Assembly (NCBI GenBank): GCA_013619145.1
Contig: JABXKR010000309.1
Span: 2,744-66,743 of the forward strand
Reading direction: 5' to 3'
Source of the DNA: Psychromonas sp.
Lineage (GTDB): Bacteria > Pseudomonadota > Gammaproteobacteria > Enterobacterales > Psychromonadaceae
Length of the DNA stretch: 64,000 nt
Program-made: the position numbers and the translations under genes
Notes under the pieces: generated by a model
The model's input: only the letters and a program-made list of their open reading frames with translations
Told to the model about the DNA's origin: nothing
Databases searched by the model: none
Shown: positions 1 through 12,487 of the stretch, piece by piece
Numbering within the stretch: the stretch's first letter is position 1
How the letters are laid out: each line of letters begins with the position of its first letter

Positions 1-989
1 CTAAAAATAAACGCCCAAAACAGCGTTACATTAATGCTCTCTTTTAATTTACTTAAACAGCGATTGCCAATATTTTTCCCCACTAAGGCTTCCACAGCAT
101 AAGCAAGACCATCCATAGAGAAAGAGATCAGCAATAAAAAGTGCATCAACACTGAATTAGCAGAAACCACATCATCACCAAGTTTTACCCCCTGCATGGT
201 CATAAATGCATAAGTAACCTGCAGACATAAGGTGCGGATAAAAATATCGCGGTTTAATGCGATAAAAGAGTTTAGGGAATGAAGGTCAATCAGTTGCTTT
301 AACAACCTTGTAAAGTCGCCTGTTTGATAGAAGGGCTTGATCATCTTAGAGACTGCAAATAAGCCGCAGATTAAAGCGATGTAATCAGCAGATAACGACG
401 CCCACGCCACACCTGCAACTTGCCATTGAAAAACGACTACAAAAAGCACACTTAAGAATATATTTACTAAGTTGGTAATAATCAGCAGAAACATCGGTAC
501 TTTGGCATTTTGCATACCTAATAACCAACCAAGCAAAACCATATTAATTAACGCTGCTGGCGCACTCCAGATACGGATAGCAAAATACTGTTTGCCATAT
601 AAAAGTACCTGTTCACTGCCATCTACAAAATGAAAAACCAGTGATGAGAGCGGGTTTTGCAGCAGTAATAAAACCGCTGCCAATAGTAAAGCTATCAGGA
701 CAGATTGTAATAAAAGGCGCAAAATTTGTTGAAAATCATTAGCACCATAGGCCTGCGCAACAAGCCCTGTGGTCGACATACGTAAAAAAACCAGCCCCCA
801 AAAAAGCAGGGTTACAACCATTGAGCCAACAGCAACACCAGCTAAATAATATGATTCAGGCAGATGACCAATCACAGCAGTATCCACTAAACCCAGTAGT
901 GGCACACTGATATTTGAAAGCATCATAGGAAGTGCTATTGCGAAGATTTTCTGGTGCGTTGAAAAGTTCAAACAGATAGTTTTTATCAT
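1..989 (-). CDS. dinF: MATE family efflux transporter DinF (3' end outside window)
   Basis: Manual translation from ATG at 989: MIKTICLNFSTHQKIFAIALPMMLSNISVPLLGLVDTAVIGHL, the DinF N-terminal signature; lies downstream of lexA as in E. coli. Confidence 0.9.
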   Translation of the reverse strand, partial: MIKTICLNFSTHQKIFAIALPMMLSNISVPLLGLVDTAVIGHLPESYYLAGVAVGSMVVTLLFWGLVFLRMSTTGLVAQAYGANDFQQILRLLLQSVLIALLLAAVLLLLQNPLSSLVFHFVDGSEQVLLYGKQYFAIRIWSAPAALINMVLLGWLLGMQNAKVPMFLLIITNLVNIFLSVLFVVVFQWQVAGVAWASLSADYIALICGLFAVSKMIKPFYQTGDFTRLLKQLIDLHSLNSFIALNRDIFIRTLCLQVTYAFMTMQGVKLGDDVVSANSVLMHFLLLISFSMDGLAYAVEALVGKNIGNRCLSKLKESINVTLFWAFIF

Positions 990-994
990 TAATA

Positions 995-1366
995 TTAATT
1001 CTGAATGGGCAGCAGTTTTTCTATTTTAAATAATAATTCTGCTATTTCAAAAGGAATTGTCATGCAAGCATCAACCTGAATTGCACGTGCGGCAATTTCC
1101 TGCTCACCTAACGGTTGATCAACTAAAACAATAACGGGGGTAAATCGACTTTGAGAATGATTCTTTAACAGCTCGCTCAGAGTTAAGCCATCAATTAAGG
1201 GTAAATTTAAACTGGTGATAACAAGATCCACCTCGTTTTCAACAATAAAATCTAAAGCTGATTGACCATTAGCAACTGATTCAACCTGATACTTTTTTTG
1301 TAATAACGCAAATTCAATGGAATCTCGTAAGGAGGTTGATCCTGTGGCTAATAATATAACTTTCAT
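995..1366 (-). CDS. Single-domain CheY-like receiver protein, atypical
   Basis: Receiver fold pattern (VDLVITSLNLPLIDGL, TPVIVL); the phosphoacceptor Asp appears replaced by Ser (ITS) and the KP motif by IP. Confidence 0.75.
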   Translation of the reverse strand: MKVILLATGSTSLRDSIEFALLQKKYQVESVANGQSALDFIVENEVDLVITSLNLPLIDGLTLSELLKNHSQSRFTPVIVLVDQPLGEQEIAARAIQVDACMTIPFEIAELLFKIEKLLPIQN

Positions 1367-1423
1367 AATCCCCCAAGCTTAATCAATATTGACGATAGTA
1401 TAATCATTAAATACAAGGCTCAT

Positions 1424-2059
1424 TTATTGCCAGTTTTGATAGATGTGATGAATATCTTCGACCATTAAATCCATATCCACATGGGCAATACCGTTTTCAT
1501 TCACTACAGCCTGAAATGTAGCATGGTGTTCACCTTGGGGATTAATAAGCACAAGTGAAGCACTATGATCGATTAAGTAATATTGATCTAACTCCTGATC
1601 AACAATGCTGTATACCAGGCCTAAATCCTGGGCAAAAGGAAATAGTTGCTGATGTGTACTGGTTACCCCTTTAAAGTCAGGGTTAAAGTAGTTTACATAT
1701 TCAGCTAAATGGTCAGCTTTATCACGGTTAGGATCAACTGAAACAAAAACGATCTGAATATTATTATATGGCGGCCTGGTTAACTCAGGGTAGATACGGT
1801 CAATATCTGCTAATGTTGTCGGACAAATATCAGGACAGTAAGTGTAACCGATAAAAAATAGTGTCCACTTATTTAATAAATCTTGGTTATCAAATTTATC
1901 ATCCGTTAACATTGCAAACGAAAAGGGGGGTAAAAGCTTGCCCTTTTCCTGGAGTAATAAAGAGGGGTTACTGGAAAAAGAGCCCGTAAATTGTGTCTGT
2001 CCCAACACAAAAAACAACACAAAAAGAACACTAAAAACAACCAATAACCCTTTTTTCAT
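1424..2059 (-). CDS. SCO1/SenC family copper chaperone
   Basis: GYTYCPDICP motif, VSVDPNRD, DHSASLVLINP; N-terminal membrane anchor. Confidence 0.92.
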   Translation of the reverse strand: MKKGLLVVFSVLFVLFFVLGQTQFTGSFSSNPSLLLQEKGKLLPPFSFAMLTDDKFDNQDLLNKWTLFFIGYTYCPDICPTTLADIDRIYPELTRPPYNNIQIVFVSVDPNRDKADHLAEYVNYFNPDFKGVTSTHQQLFPFAQDLGLVYSIVDQELDQYYLIDHSASLVLINPQGEHHATFQAVVNENGIAHVDMDLMVEDIHHIYQNWQ

Positions 2060-2062
2060 TTT

Positions 2063-2433
2063 TTACATCCAATCTGCAGTACGAATCACGCCAACAGCAA
2101 TACCTTCAATATTGAATAAATGGCTGATATTCCAAACTTTCTTACATCCAATCTGCAGTACGAATCGCCCCAAGAGTTATACCTTCAATATCAAATAAAT
2201 GGCTGATATTCCAAACTTTCTTTACATCCAATCCGCGGTACGAATCACACCAACAGCAATACCTTCAATATTGAATAAATGGCTGATATTCCAAACTTTC
2301 TTACATCCAATCCGCTGTACGAATCACGCCAACAGCAATACCTTCAATATTGAATAAATAGCTGATATTCCAAACTTTCTTACATCCAATCCGCTGTACG
2401 AATCACGCCAACAGCAATACCTTCAATATTGAA
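2063..2433 (-). repeat. Tandem array of the lexA 3' end, 79-80 bp period, four extra copies
   Basis: ttacatccaat starts at 2063, 2142, 2222, 2301 and 2380 (native gene end); unit = last 54 nt of lexA plus a 25-nt linker. Confidence 0.97.
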
Positions 2434-3009
2434 CGACTGATATTCCAAATCCACTTTAATTGGCTCAAATTGAGAGTTTTCAGCTTTCAAAATCACCTGA
2501 CTGCCTTCACGGTAAAAACGTTTAACGGTTACGTCATCTTCAACACGCGCCACAACCACCTGACCGTTATTGATATCTTGAGTTTTATGCACAGCCAATA
2601 AATCACCATCCATAATACCAATATCTTTCATGCTCTCGCCCTGTACACGCAATAAAAAATCAGCACCAGGGTGAAATAATGAAGGATCGACATTATAGTG
2701 CGCTTCAATATTCTCTTGCGCTAAAATAGGCTCTCCCGCGGCTACCATACCGACTAAAGGTAACCCATCATCAACAGCTTCTTCATATTGTTTATGAGCT
2801 CCTAGAATACGAATACCACGAGATGTGCCCGATAAAATTTCAATCGCACCTTTACGTGCTAGCGCTTTAAGATGTTCTTCAGCGGCATTCGCACTACGAA
2901 AACCTAGAATTTTCGCTAATTCCACACGTGTTGGAGGCATTCCGGTTTTTTCGATGCAGTCTTTAATCACATCCAAGACTTCACTTTGACGTTTGGTTAA
3001 CTCTTTCAT
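2380..3009 (-). CDS. lexA: SOS repressor LexA
   Basis: [22 protein letters not shown] cleavage site, GESM catalytic Ser, TVKR catalytic Lys. Confidence 0.98.
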
Positions 3010-3024
3010 AATTCCCCCACAAAA

Positions 3025-3055
3025 CTGTAAATATACACAGTGTATATCTATACAC
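3025..3055. promoter_or_regulatory. LexA (SOS) boxes upstream of lexA
   Basis: CTGT-AAATATAC-ACAG at 3025-3040 (perfect CTGT-N8-ACAG) and adjacent degenerate GTGT-ATATCTAT-ACAC at 3040-3055. Confidence 0.85.
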
Positions 3056-3143
3056 GGATTTATACTAGCTACGGTAAATAATTTTTATAAAATAAAAGCA
3101 AAATATGTAAGCCGATGCTTTCATTATCCCGAGTTGAGGTTAT

Positions 3144-3599
3144 TTATTGGTAAACAATATCCCGGTACATCAACCAGCCCGACCTTTTGGGATTAGCAGC
3201 CTCATAATGAGTTGATAAGATCATACCACCCTTATGATTCCACTTATAAATACCGCTAAACTGCAGCACTTCACCCACTTTTAAATCAACCACGGGTTTA
3301 GCTATCTCGATATTGTGTTTAATGATCAGTTTTCTGCCTGAATTTAATCGAATTAAGATTTGTTGCGCAGCATAGGGAGTACTCTGATTATCTAATATTT
3401 TTACAATTCGCCCAAGGCTAGTTACCTGCATACCACCGCGTTGCTGTTTGTAAGCAAACTCAATATGCTCAACACCATCCAGCTGTTTTTCCATTTCACT
3501 ATTATGATCATTATAAAGTGCATTTAGCTCATCTTTATCATCTGAAAAACAAGCGCATAGCATAAAACAAAATGGTAACAGCAAGAGTAGCTTTTTCAT
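3144..3599 (-). CDS. DUF3465-like lipoprotein
   Basis: Lipobox-like LCAC; GRIVKIL, LIIKHNI, YKWNHKGG and GWL motifs. Confidence 0.65.
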   Translation of the reverse strand: MKKLLLLLPFCFMLCACFSDDKDELNALYNDHNSEMEKQLDGVEHIEFAYKQQRGGMQVTSLGRIVKILDNQSTPYAAQQILIRLNSGRKLIIKHNIEIAKPVVDLKVGEVLQFSGIYKWNHKGGMILSTHYEAANPKRSGWLMYRDIVYQ

Positions 3600-3603
3600 T
3601 ACG

Positions 3604-4356
3604 TTACAGCTTGCCTGTAAAGTTTACCGGTGTAGCACCCGATTGATCTTGAGTTCCAATCCACGACAATGCCTGTTTGATCGAAGGATCGAGTTTATTG
3701 CCAGCTTTAATTGAGCCTTGTAGCTGATAAACGCCCCCCTCTTTTAACAGAAGATTAAACGTACTGGTAAGTTGTTCAGACTGCTGTTGCAAATCAGCGC
3801 TCACTTGACCATTTTCACAACTCAAATCAATATTTGGCGATGCTAAATCGACATTCCCCATATCACTATTAATCTTGGCATTTTGCCAAACAATATAACC
3901 ATCGAGTTGCTGACAATAAGGTAAACCTTGCGAGGCTTTTTTTATTACCAAAGAGAGATCACCACTGGCCTCAACCGGCAGTGGTAAACTGAGATAAGAA
4001 AGCAGTTCAGGCGCACTTAAATCAACAACAAAATTTTCAACAGAGATACCGGAAAAACCAAGCAGGATAAAACCTTTTCCTGACATAGCTTTACTGCCAT
4101 TGTTAAATTTAAGATCTAATTTTAACTGCAAACTCGTCAATGCAAGCCAGTCAACTTTCCAGTCAACTTGCTGCAAATGGTACTTTTTTTTATAAGTTAA
4201 CTGAAAGGCTTTTCCTTGCCACACTGAGCCGGAAACAGCCGCCACTTCCATCCCTGAATTTTCAGGAATAAAACGCATAACCGTGCTTACTGGTAATGTA
4301 ATCAGCAGTGACAATAGATAGAACAATAGAAATAGTAAAATAAGTTTGATTTTCAT
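3604..4356 (-). CDS. gspN: Type II secretion protein N
   Basis: N-terminal TM, SGSVWQG motif, last gene of the gsp cluster. Confidence 0.88.
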   Translation of the reverse strand: MKIKLILLFLLFYLLSLLITLPVSTVMRFIPENSGMEVAAVSGSVWQGKAFQLTYKKKYHLQQVDWKVDWLALTSLQLKLDLKFNNGSKAMSGKGFILLGFSGISVENFVVDLSAPELLSYLSLPLPVEASGDLSLVIKKASQGLPYCQQLDGYIVWQNAKINSDMGNVDLASPNIDLSCENGQVSADLQQQSEQLTSTFNLLLKEGGVYQLQGSIKAGNKLDPSIKQALSWIGTQDQSGATPVNFTGKL

Positions 4357-4386
4357 AAAGGTAATTTCTTTTTATAGTATGCCAAT

Positions 4387-4649
4387 ATACCCAAACTATT
4401 TGAAAATGCAGATTCAGAGCCTAGCTCGGATGTCAGAACAAGGCACAATATGCAGAGAATGGTTATTCCCTTTTCAAATATTGTAACGCGGTGCTGGCTT
4501 TCGAGCTATGCTCCCGTTGGGCAAGGCGAGAGGCAACCATCTTCAGCGTTATAAAACCTTGATGTGGAATGCTAGATCTTCGGCTTTATGCCTTGAATCT
4601 AGTCACCTCTCGACTTGCTGATTCCTGCATCTTCAAGTAGCTTGGGTAT
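4387..4649. mobile_element. 263-bp ERIC-like MITE
   Basis: Terminal inverted repeats ATACCCAAACTATTTGAAAATGCAG and CTGCATCTTCAAGTAGCTTGGGTAT (3 mismatches in 25), resembling ERIC termini; internal hairpins; non-coding. Confidence 0.82.
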
Positions 4650-4653
4650 TATA

Positions 4654-5136
4654 TTAATAACCAAGTAATAAACGATTAATTTTGATGTGACCCTCTTTAT
4701 CCATTCTTGACAAATCGGTATTGATAACGGACACAGAATGCTGATTATTTAAGCTTGTTAACCAGTCAATAAAGCGGCCAAATTCAACATCAGTGATCCA
4801 CACTTCGAGCTGCTGTTTTTTATTCACAATGCGTGAAAACTTGATGCCATGTTGCCTGGCACTTTTATTAACAACTTGCGTTAAGCTTAATTTTTTACTG
4901 CTTACTTTCTGTTTAGCCACCCCGGCTTGCACCAATACAACCGCTTTATCCTGCACCCAACTCAATGTTTGCTCAGCACGGCTCAACTCCTTTTTGCTCT
5001 GTTGCAACTGGTTTGCTAACGGCTTCCAAGCGCCCCAGTAAACAATGGCCAGCAATAAAAAAGCAGCACTGACTAATGACAGTTGTTGTTCTCTTTCGGA
5101 AATACTTTTCCACCAATCTTTAAACTGTTCAGTCAT
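4654..5136 (-). CDS. gspM: Type II secretion protein M
   Basis: WWKSISEREQ, TM, WKPL; position after gspL. Confidence 0.92.
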   Translation of the reverse strand: MTEQFKDWWKSISEREQQLSLVSAAFLLLAIVYWGAWKPLANQLQQSKKELSRAEQTLSWVQDKAVVLVQAGVAKQKVSSKKLSLTQVVNKSARQHGIKFSRIVNKKQQLEVWITDVEFGRFIDWLTSLNNQHSVSVINTDLSRMDKEGHIKINRLLLGY

Positions 5137-6332
5137 TATCTTTTCCTTATTGTTAGCAAACCGCTAACACGATCTTTACTGCTATTAAGTGCGCCTTGCT
5201 CCACGCTGAAATGCTTAGGTATTGAATCGGTGAATTTTTCAAATGATTGGAAGTTATTACCACTGACTAAAATTCGCATCTCAAGTTTTTTTCTATCAAA
5301 TTTAAGGCTAGTCGCTTCAAGCTCCGGATTATTTACAAAAGCAGGTAGTAACTCATTAAGCATCGATAAAAAACCGGATTCAGCAACACCGCCATCTAAG
5401 CCAAGCAACATGCTTTTAAGTTTTTTCTTAATACGTGCGTATTTTAATTTATCCTGCAAAGGGAATGCTTGTTTATAAACAGCTTCAACTTGCTGTTTAA
5501 CTAACAGGGTTTGTTTTTCTACCTGCATATTTTTCAGATAAAGGTTAAACATCAGGAAAACAAACAAGACGGCGGTTAAAACAGCTGGAATTCGCCACTT
5601 TTCAAGTTGTTTATTACTCTCTTTTTTCGGTTTAAATTCCCCCGTTAGCAGGTTTATTTTATTATTCAGGGTTCCTTTTGCCAGTAACTCCATTGGTAAC
5701 ATGGCATCACTATTAGTCCACTGGCCAACAGTGCTTTCAGGGAACGGGCTGTAACTTTCGATCTGCTGTGATAAATTCTCTTCGAGTTTACTCTCTAATA
5801 TAAAGTCAAGCATTGTTTCCTCACAGCTCCAAGCAAGGTCATGACTCTCTCTGATTATCCACTGCTTTTCGAGCTGCAGCGCCTGCCACTTTCCGTCAAC
5901 ACAAGGCAGGGTTAAACCTTCAGGGATCAACTGTTTGCAGCTTATCTGTGCGGCCTCTAACCAGTTCAGCCAAGTTGATATTTTCTGTTTGTCACAAATC
6001 GCGACATGCAGTAAATCTGTCTGTTTTGCGATAACAGAAAAGTGTAATTTTTCTACATCAGATGCCAGCTCTTCTTCCACCAGATAGGGTAACGCCTGTT
6101 GCATTTGACGATTAAAAACACCGTTAATAGTGATCGCTTTAATGCACACATCCACACCGGGCAGCAAACAGATAACAGCACGTTGCTGTGCTTTTTCGCT
6201 TAATAAATTTAATTGCTGCGCATTATCAACCTGTCCTGAGGCAATAATTTCATTTTCACTATCTGACCATATAAGCCAATGATTTTTCTGCGAAGCTTCA
6301 CTTGCTAAGCGGATTATTAATCGTTCAGTCAC
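5136..6332 (-). CDS. gspL: Type II secretion protein L
   Basis: TERLIIRL, QALPYLVEEELASDVE, INLLTGEF; likely GTG start at 6332 after GGAG. Confidence 0.93.
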   Translation of the reverse strand: MTERLIIRLASEASQKNHWLIWSDSENEIIASGQVDNAQQLNLLSEKAQQRAVICLLPGVDVCIKAITINGVFNRQMQQALPYLVEEELASDVEKLHFSVIAKQTDLLHVAICDKQKISTWLNWLEAAQISCKQLIPEGLTLPCVDGKWQALQLEKQWIIRESHDLAWSCEETMLDFILESKLEENLSQQIESYSPFPESTVGQWTNSDAMLPMELLAKGTLNNKINLLTGEFKPKKESNKQLEKWRIPAVLTAVLFVFLMFNLYLKNMQVEKQTLLVKQQVEAVYKQAFPLQDKLKYARIKKKLKSMLLGLDGGVAESGFLSMLNELLPAFVNNPELEATSLKFDRKKLEMRILVSGNNFQSFEKFTDSIPKHFSVEQGALNSSKDRVSGLLTIRKR

Positions 6333-6398
6333 CAACAATCTCCATCATACCCGTCGTTGTTACGGCGCGTATTATCCATTTATTCTGTAACACTAAGT

Positions 6399-7288
6399 TC
6401 ATTTAAATCCACCAGATTGATAACGGATCACTTTTGCCTTTTTAGCGTCAATTTTAAATAAAAGCTTAACTGTCAGTAAGCGTTCTTCAAATTCAACAAT
6501 ACCGTTTAATTGAAACAACCACTCGTTGGGCGATCATCTAGTAATTTTTGGAAATCAGAGACAGTAAGATCATGCTCTCTCTTAAACAAGGCATATAAAA
6601 TTTCAGGCTGCTCCACACTCACGGTATTAACATTAATAATCAGATCCTGTGAGGGAACTGCACATAAATAGGGCGCTATTTTTTCATATACTTTTTGCCC
6701 CACCCCCTGCACCGCTCGAAGTTCACTGATATCAACCATTAAATTATTTGCGGCTAAATGGGCAACACTTCGCCCTTGATAAAAACTATCTTCTGCACCT
6801 TGAGCGGCATCGCTTTTATCATCTGGATCAACCCAGTCCCGCGTCGATTCGGCAACCATCTCGGCTTTGTAATCATTTAAGCCGATAGCTTCTAATAAAT
6901 ATTGGAATTGGCTTACCGGCACGGCAGGCGTATTACCCTGGTCTTGCAGACCAACAGCATTAACATTAAAACAACTGCGCTGATCTTTAATCTGCCCGGC
7001 CAGATTACCGTTATCAAGCGGGAATACCATATCTGGTGTTGCCCATATTTGATCCAAGCTCACCACCTCACTATCAGCAAAATCCTGATCTAAAATCATT
7101 CTTCCTAAATCTGCCGAGGCCTGCCCGTACCAATATACTTTTTGCGAAAAAGTTAACCCCTCAGTACGCTTTAAACTTAACGTTAAACGTCCGGTCATAG
7201 TCGCTGCAATAGTTACCATGATGGCCAAAATCATTAAAACTGTAATTAAAGCGATACCACCTTGTTTTTTCTTATTAACTACAGCCAT
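6399..7288 (-). pseudogene. gspK: Minor pseudopilin GspK with internal deletion and frameshift
   Basis: QGGIALITVLMIL prepilin start; ORF stops at 6506 after DRPTSG; a GspK-like C-terminus FQLNGIVEFEERLLTVKLLFKIDAKKAKVIRYQSGGFK continues in another frame to TGA at 6399-6401. Confidence 0.8.
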
Positions 7289-7926
7289 TATTGAATAACC
7301 TCACCAGCGGAGATTAAAAAAACACGACGAATTTCAGAATAATGTTTGCTGGTAAAGTTAATTTCGATACCTGTTGGCAGCTTTTTTTCAGGCTCCCATG
7401 TGCTTTGCCAACCATTATTCCAAAAACGGAAACTGAGTTTTTCAATATTATTTAATAATACCTGCACTTCCGGCTCTTGCCCTGCCACTAAATCAGGGTA
7501 AAGAAAATACAAACGTTGTAATTGCCCCTCTTGTAGTCGATAACGTACCCGTAAAATATTAGAACGAGGCAGTAAACCAAGCGGGTTTTGCCAACCTAGA
7601 CGGTTAAATTCAATGCCCTGATCTTCTGAGTCAAACAGTGAACTGCCCGCTGTGATAACCCGTAATTTATCTTGTTCCCCACTCTCATCCCGCGAGGTTC
7701 GCGCCACAATTTGGGTAAAGTCCTGTTCAATAATAAGCATTGCTCGTTGCAGTTGCGTCAATGACTCACTGTGCTCTTTGCTTATCTCACCACTGCGTAA
7801 AACACCTTGTAATACCTGATAAGCGGTCAGGCTTAACATCGCAAAAATTGCGATAGCAATTAACACTTCAAGTAGTGTAAAGCCTTTGCTTAAAGAGCTG
7901 GAGAATGAAAAGTTACTATTTCGCAA
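7288..7926 (-). CDS. gspJ: Minor pseudopilin GspJ
   Basis: KGFTLLEVLIAIAIFA, LQRAMLIIEQDFTQ, GWQNP. Confidence 0.95.
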   Translation of the reverse strand: MRNSNFSFSSSLSKGFTLLEVLIAIAIFAMLSLTAYQVLQGVLRSGEISKEHSESLTQLQRAMLIIEQDFTQIVARTSRDESGEQDKLRVITAGSSLFDSEDQGIEFNRLGWQNPLGLLPRSNILRVRYRLQEGQLQRLYFLYPDLVAGQEPEVQVLLNNIEKLSFRFWNNGWQSTWEPEKKLPTGIEINFTSKHYSEIRRVFLISAGEVIQ

Positions 7927-8299
7927 TGTAGGTCCTAATATAAGCTAGTGCGCTACCCTCTTTCTGAGCACTCACTTCAATATCCAATGCTTTAAAGTTG
8001 CTATCACCTGTTTCCACCGTTTGATAACGTAAATGCCAGCTGTTTCCGGCAAACTCTTCTGTGTCATTTTGCCAGCTTGATGATGGCCACTTCTTTTGCA
8101 ATTTCAATTCCACCAAACGGTTACTTGCAACCCATAGAGCAAAGGTTTTATCTTGCAGATAAGCTTGATTATTTAACGCTTCAGAAGCTGATTTCATCAC
8201 AGCTAAACCGGACGTCGCCAAAATAACCAGCGCAAGCATCACCTCAAGCAATGTCATGCCCTGTTGTTTTACTGCTGTTATTTTCAACCTTGATTTCAT
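7916..8299 (-). CDS. gspI: Minor pseudopilin GspI
   Basis: QGMTLLEVMLALVIL, ALWVASNRL. Confidence 0.95.
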   Translation of the reverse strand: MKSRLKITAVKQQGMTLLEVMLALVILATSGLAVMKSASEALNNQAYLQDKTFALWVASNRLVELKLQKKWPSSSWQNDTEEFAGNSWHLRYQTVETGDSNFKALDIEVSAQKEGSALAYIRTYIAK

Positions 8300-8479
8300 T
8301 GTTTTTCTAACTCAGATAAGCTTGATTATTTAACGCTTCAGAAGCTGATTTCATCACAGCTAAACCAGACGTCGCCAAAATAACCAGCGCAAGCATCACC
8401 TCAAGCAATGTCATGCCCTGTTGTTTTACTGCTGTTGTTTTCAACCTTGATTTCATTGTTTTTCTAACTCAGATAAGCT
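8156..8479. repeat. 157-bp tandem duplication spanning the gspH end and gspI start
   Basis: 8156-8312 matches 8313-8469 with 2 differences; CAGATAAGCT occurs at 8156, 8313 and 8470. Confidence 0.95.
8307..8456 (-). pseudogene. Truncated 49-aa GspI copy (leader and N-terminal helix only)
   Basis: ATG at 8456 overlaps the gspH stop; MKSRLKTTAVKQQGMTLLEVMLALVILATSGLAVMKSASEALNNQAYLS then TAG. Confidence 0.8.
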
Positions 8480-9055
8480 GATAGCACCGTTCATACTTAC
8501 AGAAACAGTGATCGATTGTGCTTCAGAGCTGCTTTCACCGGCAGAAAATTCAAGTGAAAAAGGTGTCACTTCACCACTCGACATCACATATACCTGCGGT
8601 GTTAAACTGAGGATTTTGTCATCCCCTTCAATATCAACAAGGTAATCATCGTCAATAAAGTCATCCTGCTCATCGGTTACTATCTCATCCCAGACTGAGC
8701 CGGATAAAACATATTCAATTTTAAGCGATTCAGGTAGTTCAACTAGCCCTTCAATCTGCTTGCTGACCACAGGTAGCCACTTTTTACTTTTATAATCGTA
8801 AAAAGCAAATTGGTAGCCGTTTTTCTCAAAAACCAAGCCCAGCTCAATACCGGAAATAAGCGCTTCATCTTCGGCAAACTGTAACAGAGTACTAAAGCGT
8901 TGCGCCTGCCAGTCTACGTTTTCTTCCGAGGTTAAGTTATCGGGCAGTGTCATCACTACCCCAACCGATATCATCCCCATTAATAACAAAACCAACATAA
9001 TTTCAAGCAGTGTGAAACCATATTGGTAGTGATTTTTTAGCGGAATTTTAAACAC
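8453..9055 (-). CDS. gspH: Minor pseudopilin GspH
   Basis: YGFTLLEIMLVLLL, PQVYVMSSGEVTPF. Confidence 0.93.
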   Translation of the reverse strand: MFKIPLKNHYQYGFTLLEIMLVLLLMGMISVGVVMTLPDNLTSEENVDWQAQRFSTLLQFAEDEALISGIELGLVFEKNGYQFAFYDYKSKKWLPVVSKQIEGLVELPESLKIEYVLSGSVWDEIVTDEQDDFIDDDYLVDIEGDDKILSLTPQVYVMSSGEVTPFSLEFSAGESSSEAQSITVSVSMNGAISLSELEKQ

Positions 9056-9066
9056 TGACCCAATGC

Positions 9067-9498
9067 CTATTTTTTCGCATCTAGATTCCAGGTACCAATA
9101 TCGTCATCAGTCCCTTCTTCACCATCTGGCCCCACAGATAACACATCAATTTTACCGTGCTCACCCGGGCTGTTTAGAATGTAATCATTACCCCACGGAT
9201 CTTGTGGAAGGCGTTTGATGTAACCATCTTCACGATAATTACGAGGCTCTGGTGAGCCACTTGGCTCTTCAGTTAACGCTTCAAGTCCCTGCTCAGTAGT
9301 TGGGTATACCCCATTATCTAATTTATACATATCTAATGAGTTTTCTAATGCGATCACATCTGATACTACTTTTTGGCGATCCGCTTTATCTTTGTTACCC
9401 ATTAAGTTTGGTACAACCATCGACGCTAAAACGCCCAAGATAACGATTACCACCATAATCTCTAGTAAGGTAAAACCTTTTTGTTGCTTATTTTTCAT
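9067..9498 (-). CDS. gspG: Major pseudopilin GspG
   Basis: KGFTLLEIMVVIVILG, YPTTEQGLEAL, RLPQDPWGN. Confidence 0.98.
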   Translation of the reverse strand: MKNKQQKGFTLLEIMVVIVILGVLASMVVPNLMGNKDKADRQKVVSDVIALENSLDMYKLDNGVYPTTEQGLEALTEEPSGSPEPRNYREDGYIKRLPQDPWGNDYILNSPGEHGKIDVLSVGPDGEEGTDDDIGTWNLDAKK

Positions 9499-9535
9499 GA
9501 TATTCCCCTTTATATTTTGTTATTAGAAGTACCGG

Positions 9536-9780
9536 TTAACCGGGCACCCTGCTATTAAGTTGCAAAAGGCCTGTAAAATCAACCTGATACCATATTATTA
9601 AGTTGCAAAATGCCTGTAAAATCAACCTGAGACCATATTATTAAGTTGTAAAAGGCCTGTAAAATCAATCTGAGACCATATTATTAAGTTATAAAAGGCC
9701 TGTAAAATCAACCTGAGACCATATTATTAAGCTGCAAAAGGCCTGTAAAATCAACCTGATACCATATTGTTAAGTTGTAA
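9536..9780 (-). repeat. Tandem array of the gspF 3' end, 43-bp period, five extra copies
   Basis: Copies start at 9536 (degenerate), 9579, 9622, 9665, 9708 and 9751 (native); unit = last 10 codons plus linker TTTTACAGGCCTT. Confidence 0.96.
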
Positions 9781-10965
9781 AATTGGCTGCAAAATTGCCG
9801 ACACGATAAATAAAACCACCCCCGCCATTGAAATCACTAAAGCAGGTTCAAAAATACCCAAAGCGATAGTAACTTGCGCTGAAAATTGTTTGTCTTGATT
9901 ATCCGCAGACCGTTCCAGCATATTGCCAAGCTCACCACTACGTTCACCACTGGCTATCATATGTAACATCATAGGAGGAAATAGTTTAGTGCTCTTTAAG
10001 GCTCGTCCGAGGCTTGCACCTTCGCGAACCCGCTCTGTGGCTTCCCCTACCTGCTGGCGAATATAAAGGTTACTCAGTACCTGCCCGGCAATGGACATAG
10101 CCTCCAATAGCGGCACGGCACTGCTGTTTAAAATACTTAATGTACGCGCAAAACGGGCTGTATTTAACTCATTAGCAACACGCCCGATCACCGGCAGTTT
10201 AAGTAACTGTTGATCAAACTTTAACTGCTTCTCCTCCTTTTTTAAGATCTGCTTACTAAAGAACAGGAAGGCAACAACAAACAGTACAAAATACAAACCG
10301 TAAGCACTTAAAGCGTCACTGGCAGCAATTAAAAATTGTGTTGAACCGGGCAGATCTGCGCCCATATGTTCAAACTGCCCCACCACCTGAGGCACAACAG
10401 AAGTTAGCAAAATAGCCACAACAGAGATCGCCACTAAGGTTAATACAATTGGATAGATCATCGCCTGCATCATTTTGCTTTTCATTTCTTGACGTTGCTC
10501 TGCATAATCGGCAAGCCTGTCTAATACTTTATCAAGATGCCCCGACTTTTCGCCTGCGGCCACCATAGCACAGAATAGATTATCAAAAATAAGCGGAAAA
10601 CCACGCATACTATCAGCAAGACTATGCCCTTCAATCACGCCACCGCGCACAGAAACAATCATCGCTTTAATTTTTGGTTTGTCACACTGCTCAGCAACCG
10701 CGTGTAAACACTCTTCAATCGGAATAGCAGCTGCGACTAATGTTGATAATTGACGGGTTATTAATGCTAAATCAGCCGTTTTTATTTTACTGCTGAATAA
10801 ACTGGCACCACTTTTAGATGTTTTACTGGCAACCGCTTCCACCTCAACAGGTGTTAAGCCGGAGCTGCGTAATTGTTGGCGTAGCAGACGTGCGGAATCG
10901 GCTTCTAATGTGCCTTTTTGCTGTTTTCCTCGTGCATCGATTGCTTTATAAAAAAACGTAGCCAC
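9751..10965 (-). CDS. gspF: Type II secretion inner membrane protein F
   Basis: TRQLSTLV, MVAAGEKSGHL, QAMIYP, MIASGERSG, FEP. Confidence 0.98.
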   Translation of the reverse strand: MATFFYKAIDARGKQQKGTLEADSARLLRQQLRSSGLTPVEVEAVASKTSKSGASLFSSKIKTADLALITRQLSTLVAAAIPIEECLHAVAEQCDKPKIKAMIVSVRGGVIEGHSLADSMRGFPLIFDNLFCAMVAAGEKSGHLDKVLDRLADYAEQRQEMKSKMMQAMIYPIVLTLVAISVVAILLTSVVPQVVGQFEHMGADLPGSTQFLIAASDALSAYGLYFVLFVVAFLFFSKQILKKEEKQLKFDQQLLKLPVIGRVANELNTARFARTLSILNSSAVPLLEAMSIAGQVLSNLYIRQQVGEATERVREGASLGRALKSTKLFPPMMLHMIASGERSGELGNMLERSADNQDKQFSAQVTIALGIFEPALVISMAGVVLFIVSAILQPILQLNNMVSG

Positions 10966-10966
10966 A

Positions 10967-12487
10967 CTAATCCTCTCTCGTTACGCGCAAGATCTCTTCC
11001 AGTGTAGTTTCTCCAGCGAGCACTTTTGCTAAACCATCATCTCGAATACTTGGCGTATGCTGACGAATCTCTTTTTCAACGGCCTGCTCACCCGCACCTG
11101 TATGGATCAATTCACGTACAATTTCATCCACCACCAGTAACTCATGGATCCCCGTCCGCCCTTTGTAACCCGTTTGGTTACAATGTTCACAGCCTACGGC
11201 ACGATAAATAATCGCTTTAGCATGACTTTCCAAACCTAATATTTGATTTTCTTTTTCAGTGCTGGCATGCGGCGCTTTGCAGCTTGGACACAAACGGCGC
11301 ACTAAGCGCTGCGCCAATACACCTAGTAAACTCGAAGACAATAAGAAAGGTTCAACCCCCATATCACGCAGACGCGTGACCGCACCAACGGCGCTATTGG
11401 TATGCAACGTCGAAAATACTAAGTGACCGGTTAAACTCGCCTGCACAGCGATTTCGGCAGTTTCCAAATCACGAATTTCACCAATCATCACTACATCGGG
11501 ATCCTGACGCAATATTGCCCGTAAACCACGCGCAAAAGTCATATCAACTTTACTGTTTACTTGGGTTTGACCAATACCGTCAATCGCATACTCAATAGGA
11601 TCTTCAACCGTAAGAATATTACAGTCTTTGGAGTTTATCTCTAATAACCCCGCATAGAGCGTGGTACTTTTACCCGAACCTGTCGGGCCGGTAACCAGAA
11701 CAATGCCATGCGGTTTGTGGATAAGATCGCGCAACAAGCCATGGTTTTGCTCAGTCATCCCCAGTGTTGCAAGATCGAGTTTAATAGCGTTTTTATCTAA
11801 CAAACGTAAAACAACACGCTCACCATGGCTAGCCGGCATGGTGGAAACACGCACATCAACCGCACGGCCACCAATACGCAGCGAAATACGACCATCTTGC
11901 GGAATACGTTTTTCGGCGATATCAAGTTTCGCCATTACTTTAATACGTGATACCAATAAAGCAGCCAACTTACGCTGAGGTTTTAAAATCTCACGCAGCA
12001 CGCCATCGACACGGAAACGAATAATCAATGAATTTTCAAAGGTTTCGATATGAATATCAGATGCTTCTTCTTTAATGGCTTCGCCTAACATAGCATTGAT
12101 AAGTTTGATAATCGGCGCATCGTCTTCAGTTTCTAACAGATCTTCATCATCTGGCAACTCCTCTGCAAGGGTAAAGAAATCATCGCTGCCAATATCTTCC
12201 ATCAATTGTTGTGCTTCAGAAGATGAAGACTGATAAGCCAGTGCAACCAGCTCCTCAAAACGTTCATTATCGACCAGCTTTAAGCTAAAAGAGTGGCCAA
12301 TCACGCGGCGCACTTCCAATAACAGCTCAGGAGCGGGCTTCTGCTTATAACAAAGTTCAGTGGACTGGCCGTCAAAGCCGATAACTAATTCATGTTTTTT
12401 AGAAAAAGGAAAAGGCAGTTGACCGCGAGGTGTTACCTCTGCGATCTCCTCTTCATAAACAGGAACTGTTTGTTCAAGCAGGCTCAT
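10967..12487 (-). CDS. gspE: Type II secretion ATPase E
   Basis: [22 protein letters not shown], CxxC metal motifs. Confidence 0.98.

What the first reader, a model, noticed from the sequence alone, without database searches (positions are those of the whole stretch)
2063..9780. Recurrent gene-tail arrays: two unrelated genes followed by copies of their own 3' ends that carry mostly synonymous variation
Seen: lexA (79-bp period, 4 extra copies) and gspF (43-bp period, 5 extra copies) share one architecture. The last 10-18 codons including the stop alternate with a near-constant linker that is itself a distorted copy of the preceding coding sequence. Differences from the live gene are synonymous in 9 of 13 cases (lexA copies) and 10 of 12 cases (four nearest gspF copies), although the copies lie after the stop. 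These counts include shared changes, so they are not all independent. Neutral decay should not respect codon position. Inference: the copies were once functional ends or came from relatives' alleles, so the arrays act as a record of past alleles. Possible causes are repeated unequal recombination with incoming homologous DNA, an element that integrates at and regenerates gene ends, or silent cassettes for C-terminal swapping. I know of no named system of this type.
Basis: partly seen in the sequence, partly recalled or inferred. Interest (0 to 1): 0.85.

Follow-up and report, generated by a model that had tools for sequence, protein, structure and literature searches.

The report
Swappable spare gene ends, genome-wide
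In this marine Psychromonas about one gene in eighty is followed by head-to-tail copies of its own last codons and stop; two such arrays are shared with other species yet match each species' own gene, so the silent copies likely swap with the working gene end by ordinary recombination, which would keep them protein-ready without dedicated machinery.

Summary
lexA (79 bp, 4 extra copies) and gspF (43 bp, 5) are two of 33 gene-tail duplications among 2591 gene ends of this Psychromonas genome; a third lies in the window (gspH/gspI). Unique differences are synonymous in 74 of 136 cases, against 26% for neutral decay and about 41% if the live gene also drifts; without xerD, lexA and gspF the excess over 41% is weak (54/110, p=0.065). 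A closed relative shows a similar rate (5/494), and run contigs cover the lexA junctions at raised depth, so a co-assembly artefact is unlikely. The dnaB and xerD arrays are shared with other species (same period, homologous linker), yet copies match each species' own live end: concerted evolution. Linkers are local DNA; no shared element, DGR pattern, mini-genes or mutS/dnaQ/sbcB loss. Best reading: tandem duplications across stop codons, cycled through the coding position by unequal recombination, likely with incoming strain DNA. Matches to other strains' live alleles were not shown. Stop-overlapping VNTRs are known; this scan noted similar single arrays on other DNA before. New variant of a known kind.

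The parts
2380..3009 (-). lexA, live gene; its last 54 nt are the clean part of the repeat
2301..2379 (-). lexA tail copy 1 (79 bp): distorted linker plus tail identical to the live end
2222..2300 (-). lexA tail copy 2: two synonymous changes
2142..2221 (-). lexA tail copy 3 (80 bp): most diverged; carries the Asp codon found in many relatives plus three amino-acid-changing changes not seen in them
2063..2141 (-). lexA tail copy 4, distal: two synonymous states and the downstream junction match relative G002; likely the former gene end
1424..2059 (-). downstream gene starting 3 nt after the distal stop (SCO/SenC-like by recalled motif; no NCBIfam hit at 1e-20)
9751..10965 (-). gspF, live gene
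9579..9750 (-). four 43-bp gspF tail copies (9708-9750, 9665-9707, 9622-9664, 9579-9621)
9536..9578 (-). fifth, decayed gspF copy; aligns with the G002 gspF end and its downstream DNA; likely the former gene end
9067..9498 (-). gspG, downstream gene
8156..8479 (-). 157-bp tandem duplication of gspH end plus gspI start, 98% identical, with a 10-bp microhomology shared by gspH and gspI at the joint; likely a young duplication
8453..9055 (-). gspH, intact
7916..8299 (-). gspI, intact copy; a truncated copy of its start lies upstream in the duplication

Best explanation
These are tandem duplications that span a gene's stop codon, and their copies likely swap with the live 3' end by unequal homologous recombination or slippage, within the chromosome and probably with incoming DNA of other strains. 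Shown: units are built from the gene's tail plus local flanking DNA; they sit behind 33 of 2591 genes; dnaB and xerD arrays persist across species while their coding-derived part tracks each species' live gene; differences are enriched for synonymous changes. Inferred: birth at microhomologies; survival because a duplication over a stop leaves the gene intact; expansion puts the live end into a new copy and contraction puts a copy's end into the gene, so damaged copies would be selected against and the never-refreshed 5' part decays into the 'distorted linker'; the distal copy tends to hold the old end.
For: Tail copies downstream 34/2591 versus 1/2591 upstream, 11/2614 heads, 7/2756 mid-gene (one protein-repeat locus then dropped). 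74/136 unique changes synonymous, 81/136 third position. dnaB: G000 and G002 share a 119-120 bp period and homologous linker (0/2000 shuffles); copies differ from their own live end at 1-4 of 51 nt and from the other species' sequences at 9-12. xerD: G000 and G031 share a 149-bp first period and linker (0/2000); G031 copies are 4-8 of 90 nt from their own end, 12-17 from G000's sequences; 33 of 40 copy-versus-live changes over five copies in three species are synonymous (shared changes not collapsed). G011 keeps a decayed gspF copy with G000's junction (0/3000). Amino-acid-changing differences arise mostly in copies (35 live=G002 versus 13 copy=G002), synonymous ones on both sides (19 versus 18). 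Synonymous share 33/55 near the stop, 20/51 far (p=0.051). comEC is present.
Against: A toy single-lineage simulation of exchange alone gave 29-41% synonymous, never 54%; extra synonymous input on the live end of about 2-3 times the mutation rate was needed, and population-level selection was not modelled. Without xerD, lexA and gspF the excess over 41% is not significant (54/110, p=0.065). Some arrays are plainly decayed (1/8, 2/11, 4/11). G000's own xerD copies are only slightly closer to their live end (11-13) than to G031's (16-17). The ancestral-distal-copy pattern is mixed across arrays (a crude test). No copy was matched to another strain's live allele. Head duplications show 8/22 synonymous.
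Confidence: 0.7

Rival explanations
1. Plain decaying tandem duplications with no later exchange; the synonymous share comes only from the live gene drifting after duplication.
For: This alone gives about 41% synonymous; outside xerD, lexA and gspF the data are compatible (p=0.065); several arrays are decayed.
Against: dnaB and xerD copies track each species' live end although the arrays are shared across species; xerD copies are 33/40 synonymous.
Confidence: 0.12
2. The arrays are kept by selection for a function: repair templates for conserved C-termini, or tunable spacers that set expression of the next operon gene.
For: Arrays persist across species; the next gene is on the same strand in 24 of 33; second, independent duplications behind gspF (G036) and xerD (G033).
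Against: Patchy presence: dnaB array in 2 of 40 genomes with a match, xerD in 3 of 41, lexA in none of 103 other loci beyond one weak hit; no common period, linker or fold.
Confidence: 0.08
3. A mobile element, integrase or reverse transcriptase writes new gene ends and pushes the old ones downstream.
For: G000 holds three RT matches; the layout recalls integration scars.
Against: The RTs are group II intron type and lie on contigs without tail arrays; changes are not adenine-specific (copy A 31, gene A 34 of 136); linkers are local and unshared; no recombinase or RT among the 62 window ORFs scanned apart from the RmuC family; no Rfam hit in 1-12000.
Confidence: 0.05
4. Assembly artefact from mixed strains in a metagenome.
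For: G000 is 336 contigs and the DNA occurs in marine sediment metagenomes; no run contig spans the lexA array; one X1 contig skips the 157-bp unit and one X2 contig skips four gspF units.
Against: Junction-spanning pieces exist in three runs; the shared 38-mer has depth 421 against 84 and 77 in the X2 flanks, 72 against 23 and 37 in X1; closed genome G013 has 5/494 such loci, one with four copies; G002 and G031 hold homologous arrays. Exact copy number and order in G000 may still be wrong.
Confidence: 0.04

Closest known systems
Bacterial VNTRs/minisatellites that overlap stop codons (Yersinia pestis survey, PMC3689786; passages read)
   Same: Tandem units whose first copy contains a gene's stop; 10 of 88 VNTRs there overlap stops and 6 overlap starts; the authors note that non-identical motifs could alter the gene when copy number changes.
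   Different: Units here are longer (first periods 43-315 bp against 1-60), carry 6-39 codons, occur at 33 loci, and show synonymous bias and cross-species concerted evolution, which the passages read do not describe.
rhs C-terminal displacement (PMC2935791; passages read) and HFIR-built T6SS arrays (PMC5361080; passages read)
   Same: Host recombination, no integrase, old 3' ends left silent in strings behind an intact gene; downstream fragments nearly identical to the adjacent live gene.
   Different: There the tips are non-homologous toxin domains; here the copies re-spell the same C-terminus of housekeeping genes in short units, with no new protein.
Microhomology-mediated tandem duplication (10.1101/2020.03.03.972455; listing and start of abstract only)
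   Same: Likely birth step; the gspH/gspI unit has a 10-bp microhomology.
   Different: Described in fission yeast as rapidly reversible mutations; here some arrays last across species.
Integration scars at 3' ends of target genes (tRNA-linked repeats, SCC at rlmH; recalled, no call)
   Same: A gene end is duplicated downstream and the gene stays intact.
   Different: No cargo, no integrase, no shared attachment motif; many unrelated core genes are affected.
Mycobacterial MIRUs (PMC12548453; one passage read)
   Same: Short repeats at junctions of co-oriented genes.
   Different: MIRUs are one dispersed, apparently mobile family with their own coupled ORF; these units are locus-specific and 4 of 62 copies have a start with a Shine-Dalgarno-like motif.

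Membership tests
Minisatellite/VNTR overlapping a stop codon | head-to-tail units, first unit contains the stop | tested here: met
Minisatellite/VNTR overlapping a stop codon | copy number or unit content varies between strains | tested here: inconclusive
   Run contigs show other unit variants and depth ratios that differ between runs, but contigs cannot give copy number per molecule
Concertedly evolving tandem array | array shared by species, copies closer to own than to foreign sequences | tested here: met
   dnaB and xerD; lexA has no shared array to test; gspF remnant in G011 too decayed
rhs-type C-terminal displacement | silent former 3' ends behind the intact gene | tested here: met
   distal lexA, xerD, rlmE, gspF copies carry states or junctions of relatives
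rhs-type C-terminal displacement | non-homologous variable tips giving new proteins | tested here: not met
   copies spell the same or a decayed peptide
Diversity-generating retroelement | adenine-specific template-to-variable differences | tested here: not met
Diversity-generating retroelement | linked DGR reverse transcriptase | tested here: not met
   three RTs, best match group II intron type, on other contigs; genome 86% complete
Integrative element or cassette array at a gene 3' end | foreign cargo between repeats and a cognate recombinase | tested here: not met
   27 of 33 linkers match flanking DNA, 1 recurs elsewhere, 6 unexplained; window scan
MIRU-like coupled mini-ORFs | own start and ribosome site in each unit | tested here: not met
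   4 of 62 copies; translation itself not testable here

The most novel reading that the evidence does not exclude
Bacteria keep banks of spare 3' ends behind core genes that are held protein-ready by second-order selection and refreshed from other strains, so each array is a readable record of past alleles and a selected repair or operon-tuning device, strongest where the tail is functionally critical, as in xerD.
Probability: 0.15. Interest if true: 0.75.

Novelty: new variant of a known kind. Interest (0 to 1): 0.5.

Why it matters
It shows untranslated DNA that evolves like coding sequence at dozens of core genes, with cross-species evidence of exchange between live ends and copies. Such arrays would let one measure swap rates, recombination import and second-order selection inside a single genome. 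They also warn that synonymous bias after a stop codon is not proof of translation, and that short-read assemblies may misplace which copy is the gene end.

Tried and rejected
Mutator by loss of repair genes: mutS, dnaQ and sbcB are intact in G000 (the dnaQ lead came from PMC3673631, passages read); mutL, recJ, xseA, recA were not searched. DGR, cassette and mini-gene readings rejected. Hairpin linkers: 3 of 33 with fold z below -3. Age order along arrays not found. One search used a fixed 30-nt window that overruns short homologies and misplaced the fifth gspF copy by one base, so its total (21 versus 50) is not used. A pattern for the lexA junction found nothing in JGI metagenome contigs. 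No RNA holder listed. No earlier notes on this genome. A genome-wide rate outside the genus was not measured. Nine literature searches gave no paper on genome-wide, synonymous-biased gene-tail arrays; the library lacks most subscription journals and no supplements were read.
Full report
Observation. Both arrays are present as described behind lexA and gspF. Collapsed by hand to unique changes they are 7/11 (lexA) and 7/12 (gspF with its decayed fifth copy), above the neutral rate but not above 41%. A third duplication in the window (8156-8479) joins the gspH end to the gspI start at a 10-bp microhomology.

Organism and artefact check. The best titled LexA relatives are Psychromonas. G000 is 3.95 Mb in 336 contigs, 86% complete, held in four marine sediment metagenome runs of one study. 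Only contigs of these runs were available. Pieces crossing lexA junctions exist in X1, X2 and X3; the shared 38-mer has depth 421 in X2 against flanks of 84 and 77, and 72 in X1 against 23 and 37; X2 and X3 also show unit variants not in G000. Against: no contig spans the lexA array, and single contigs skip the 157-bp unit (X1) or four gspF units (X2), which may be graph collapse or real strains. Multiple copies look real; number and order are unproven.

Genome-wide pattern. With a crude ORF caller (genes of 450 nt or more), the last 24 nt recur within 700 nt downstream for 34/2591 genes, upstream for 1/2591; heads recur upstream for 11/2614; mid-gene windows for 7/2756. One protein-repeat locus (C82) was dropped, leaving 33 tails and 10 heads (p=0.0006; start calls are uncertain, so heads may be undercounted). 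Of 19 further tail genes scanned, 17 hit a family; those over the curated cut-off include xerD, dnaB, fliG, rlmE, rnhB, trmA, iscS, cysB, miaA, mutM, ilvC. Samples of relatives gave 5/494 (closed G013, 0.8 Mb), 1/271 (closed G008, 0.4 Mb), 1/537 (G002, 0.8 Mb), 0/174 (G011, 0.24 Mb). The trait is found across the genus at uneven rates; G000 exceeds the three low genomes (p=0.002; kin are not independent).

Synonymous bias. 74/136 unique changes are synonymous; 26% is expected for neutral decay and 41% if the live end also drifts (p=3e-12 and 0.0016). Without xerD 63/124 (p=0.023); without xerD, lexA and gspF 54/110 (p=0.065). G013 gives 12/20 and G008 3/7. Polarised on G002, amino-acid-changing differences lie mostly in copies (35 versus 13, 5 neither) and synonymous ones on both sides (19 versus 18, 17 neither), shared changes counted per copy. 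The share falls from 33/55 near the stop to 20/51 far from it (p=0.051), and first copies are not closer to the gene than last ones (p=0.54). A toy single-lineage simulation reached only 29-41% with exchange alone and needed 2-3 times extra synonymous input to approach 54%; it lacks population-level selection, so it shows only that clonal slippage in one lineage is not enough.

Concerted evolution. dnaB has an array in 2 of 40 genus genomes with a match (30 loci inspected). G000 and G002 share period and linker (0/2000 shuffles), yet copies are 1-4 of 51 nt from their own live end and 9-12 from the other species. xerD has tail copies in 3 of 41: G000 and G031 share the first period and linker (0/2000), G033 has an independent 85-bp unit; 33 of 40 changes over the five copies are synonymous; G031 copies cluster with their own end, G000's only weakly. 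The duplicated xerD stretch includes the TQIYTH motif, recalled as holding the catalytic tyrosine. For gspF, G011 keeps a decayed copy with G000's junction (0/3000) and G036 has an independent longer duplication; 30 loci were inspected, one cut off by its contig end. lexA tail copies were seen in none of 103 other loci, some of them duplicates, bar one weak hit. In lexA, xerD, rlmE and gspF the distal copy carries states or the downstream junction of relatives; across all arrays this is mixed.

No dedicated machinery found. 27 of 33 linkers match upstream coding or downstream DNA (p<0.01), 6 match neither, 1 holds a dispersed repeat. Changes are not adenine-specific. RTs are group II intron type. 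4 of 62 copies have a start with a ribosome-site motif; 60 of 62 keep a stop, partly by ascertainment. mutS, dnaQ, sbcB and comEC are intact.

Mechanism. Shown: local origin of units, tail enrichment, synonymous excess, persistence with tracking at dnaB and xerD. Inferred: microhomology birth; survival at stops because the gene stays whole; unequal exchange that moves live ends into copies and copy ends into the gene; selection against damaged copies; import of other strains' synonymous alleles. Confidence 0.7. The archive claim in its strong form (copies equal other strains' live alleles) was not shown.

Known kin. Stop-overlapping VNTRs are described (PMC3689786, passages). It works like rhs C-terminal displacement (PMC2935791, passages; HFIR model in PMC5361080, passages) but is not a member, since no new tip is made. 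Nine searches found no account of a genome-wide, synonymous-biased class; coverage is limited to open papers. This scan's earlier, unchecked notes report similar single arrays in other bacteria; they are not independent support.

Verdict. Real, genome-wide, probably a by-product of ordinary duplication and recombination, with clear cross-species evidence of exchange at two loci. New variant of a known kind; interest 0.5.

Noticed in passing
window 4386-4649: 264-bp interspersed element with terminal inverted repeats in the gap between two genes of the secretion cluster; 56 hits in G000, 25 of 200 nt or more, high depth and loose ends in run contigs. Resembles an ERIC-like MITE (recalled); no Rfam hit.
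   Followed up: partly
window about 6500-6520: gspK stops early (260 aa, profile 307) at a deletion of about 80 bp relative to G002 between short repeats; X1 and X2 contigs end at 6516 with further letters beyond, so this may be an assembly error or a strain variant.
   Followed up: partly
L135:11150-12150 (G002:C6): Complex nested array behind a gene whose C-terminus looks like ribosomal protein L9 (recalled), with units holding tail plus terminator-like hairpins.
   Followed up: no
L088:8373-9615 (G013): Four tail copies alternating between two allele types in a closed genome.
   Followed up: no
G000 whole genome: 88 tandem-repeat loci of period 25 or more: 28 inside ORFs, 24 intergenic, 32 over a stop, 4 over a start only; general tendency to mid-length duplications. 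One is a tRNA-like 142-bp repeat at C326:24678-25035.
   Followed up: partly
G000:C86:29583-30662 (rlmE): The live rlmE end differs in its last codons from G002 and G011, while the distal copy matches them, so the protein's C-terminus changed with the array.
   Followed up: partly
L279, L280, L281: Three group II intron-type reverse transcriptase ORFs, two cut by contig ends.
   Followed up: partly
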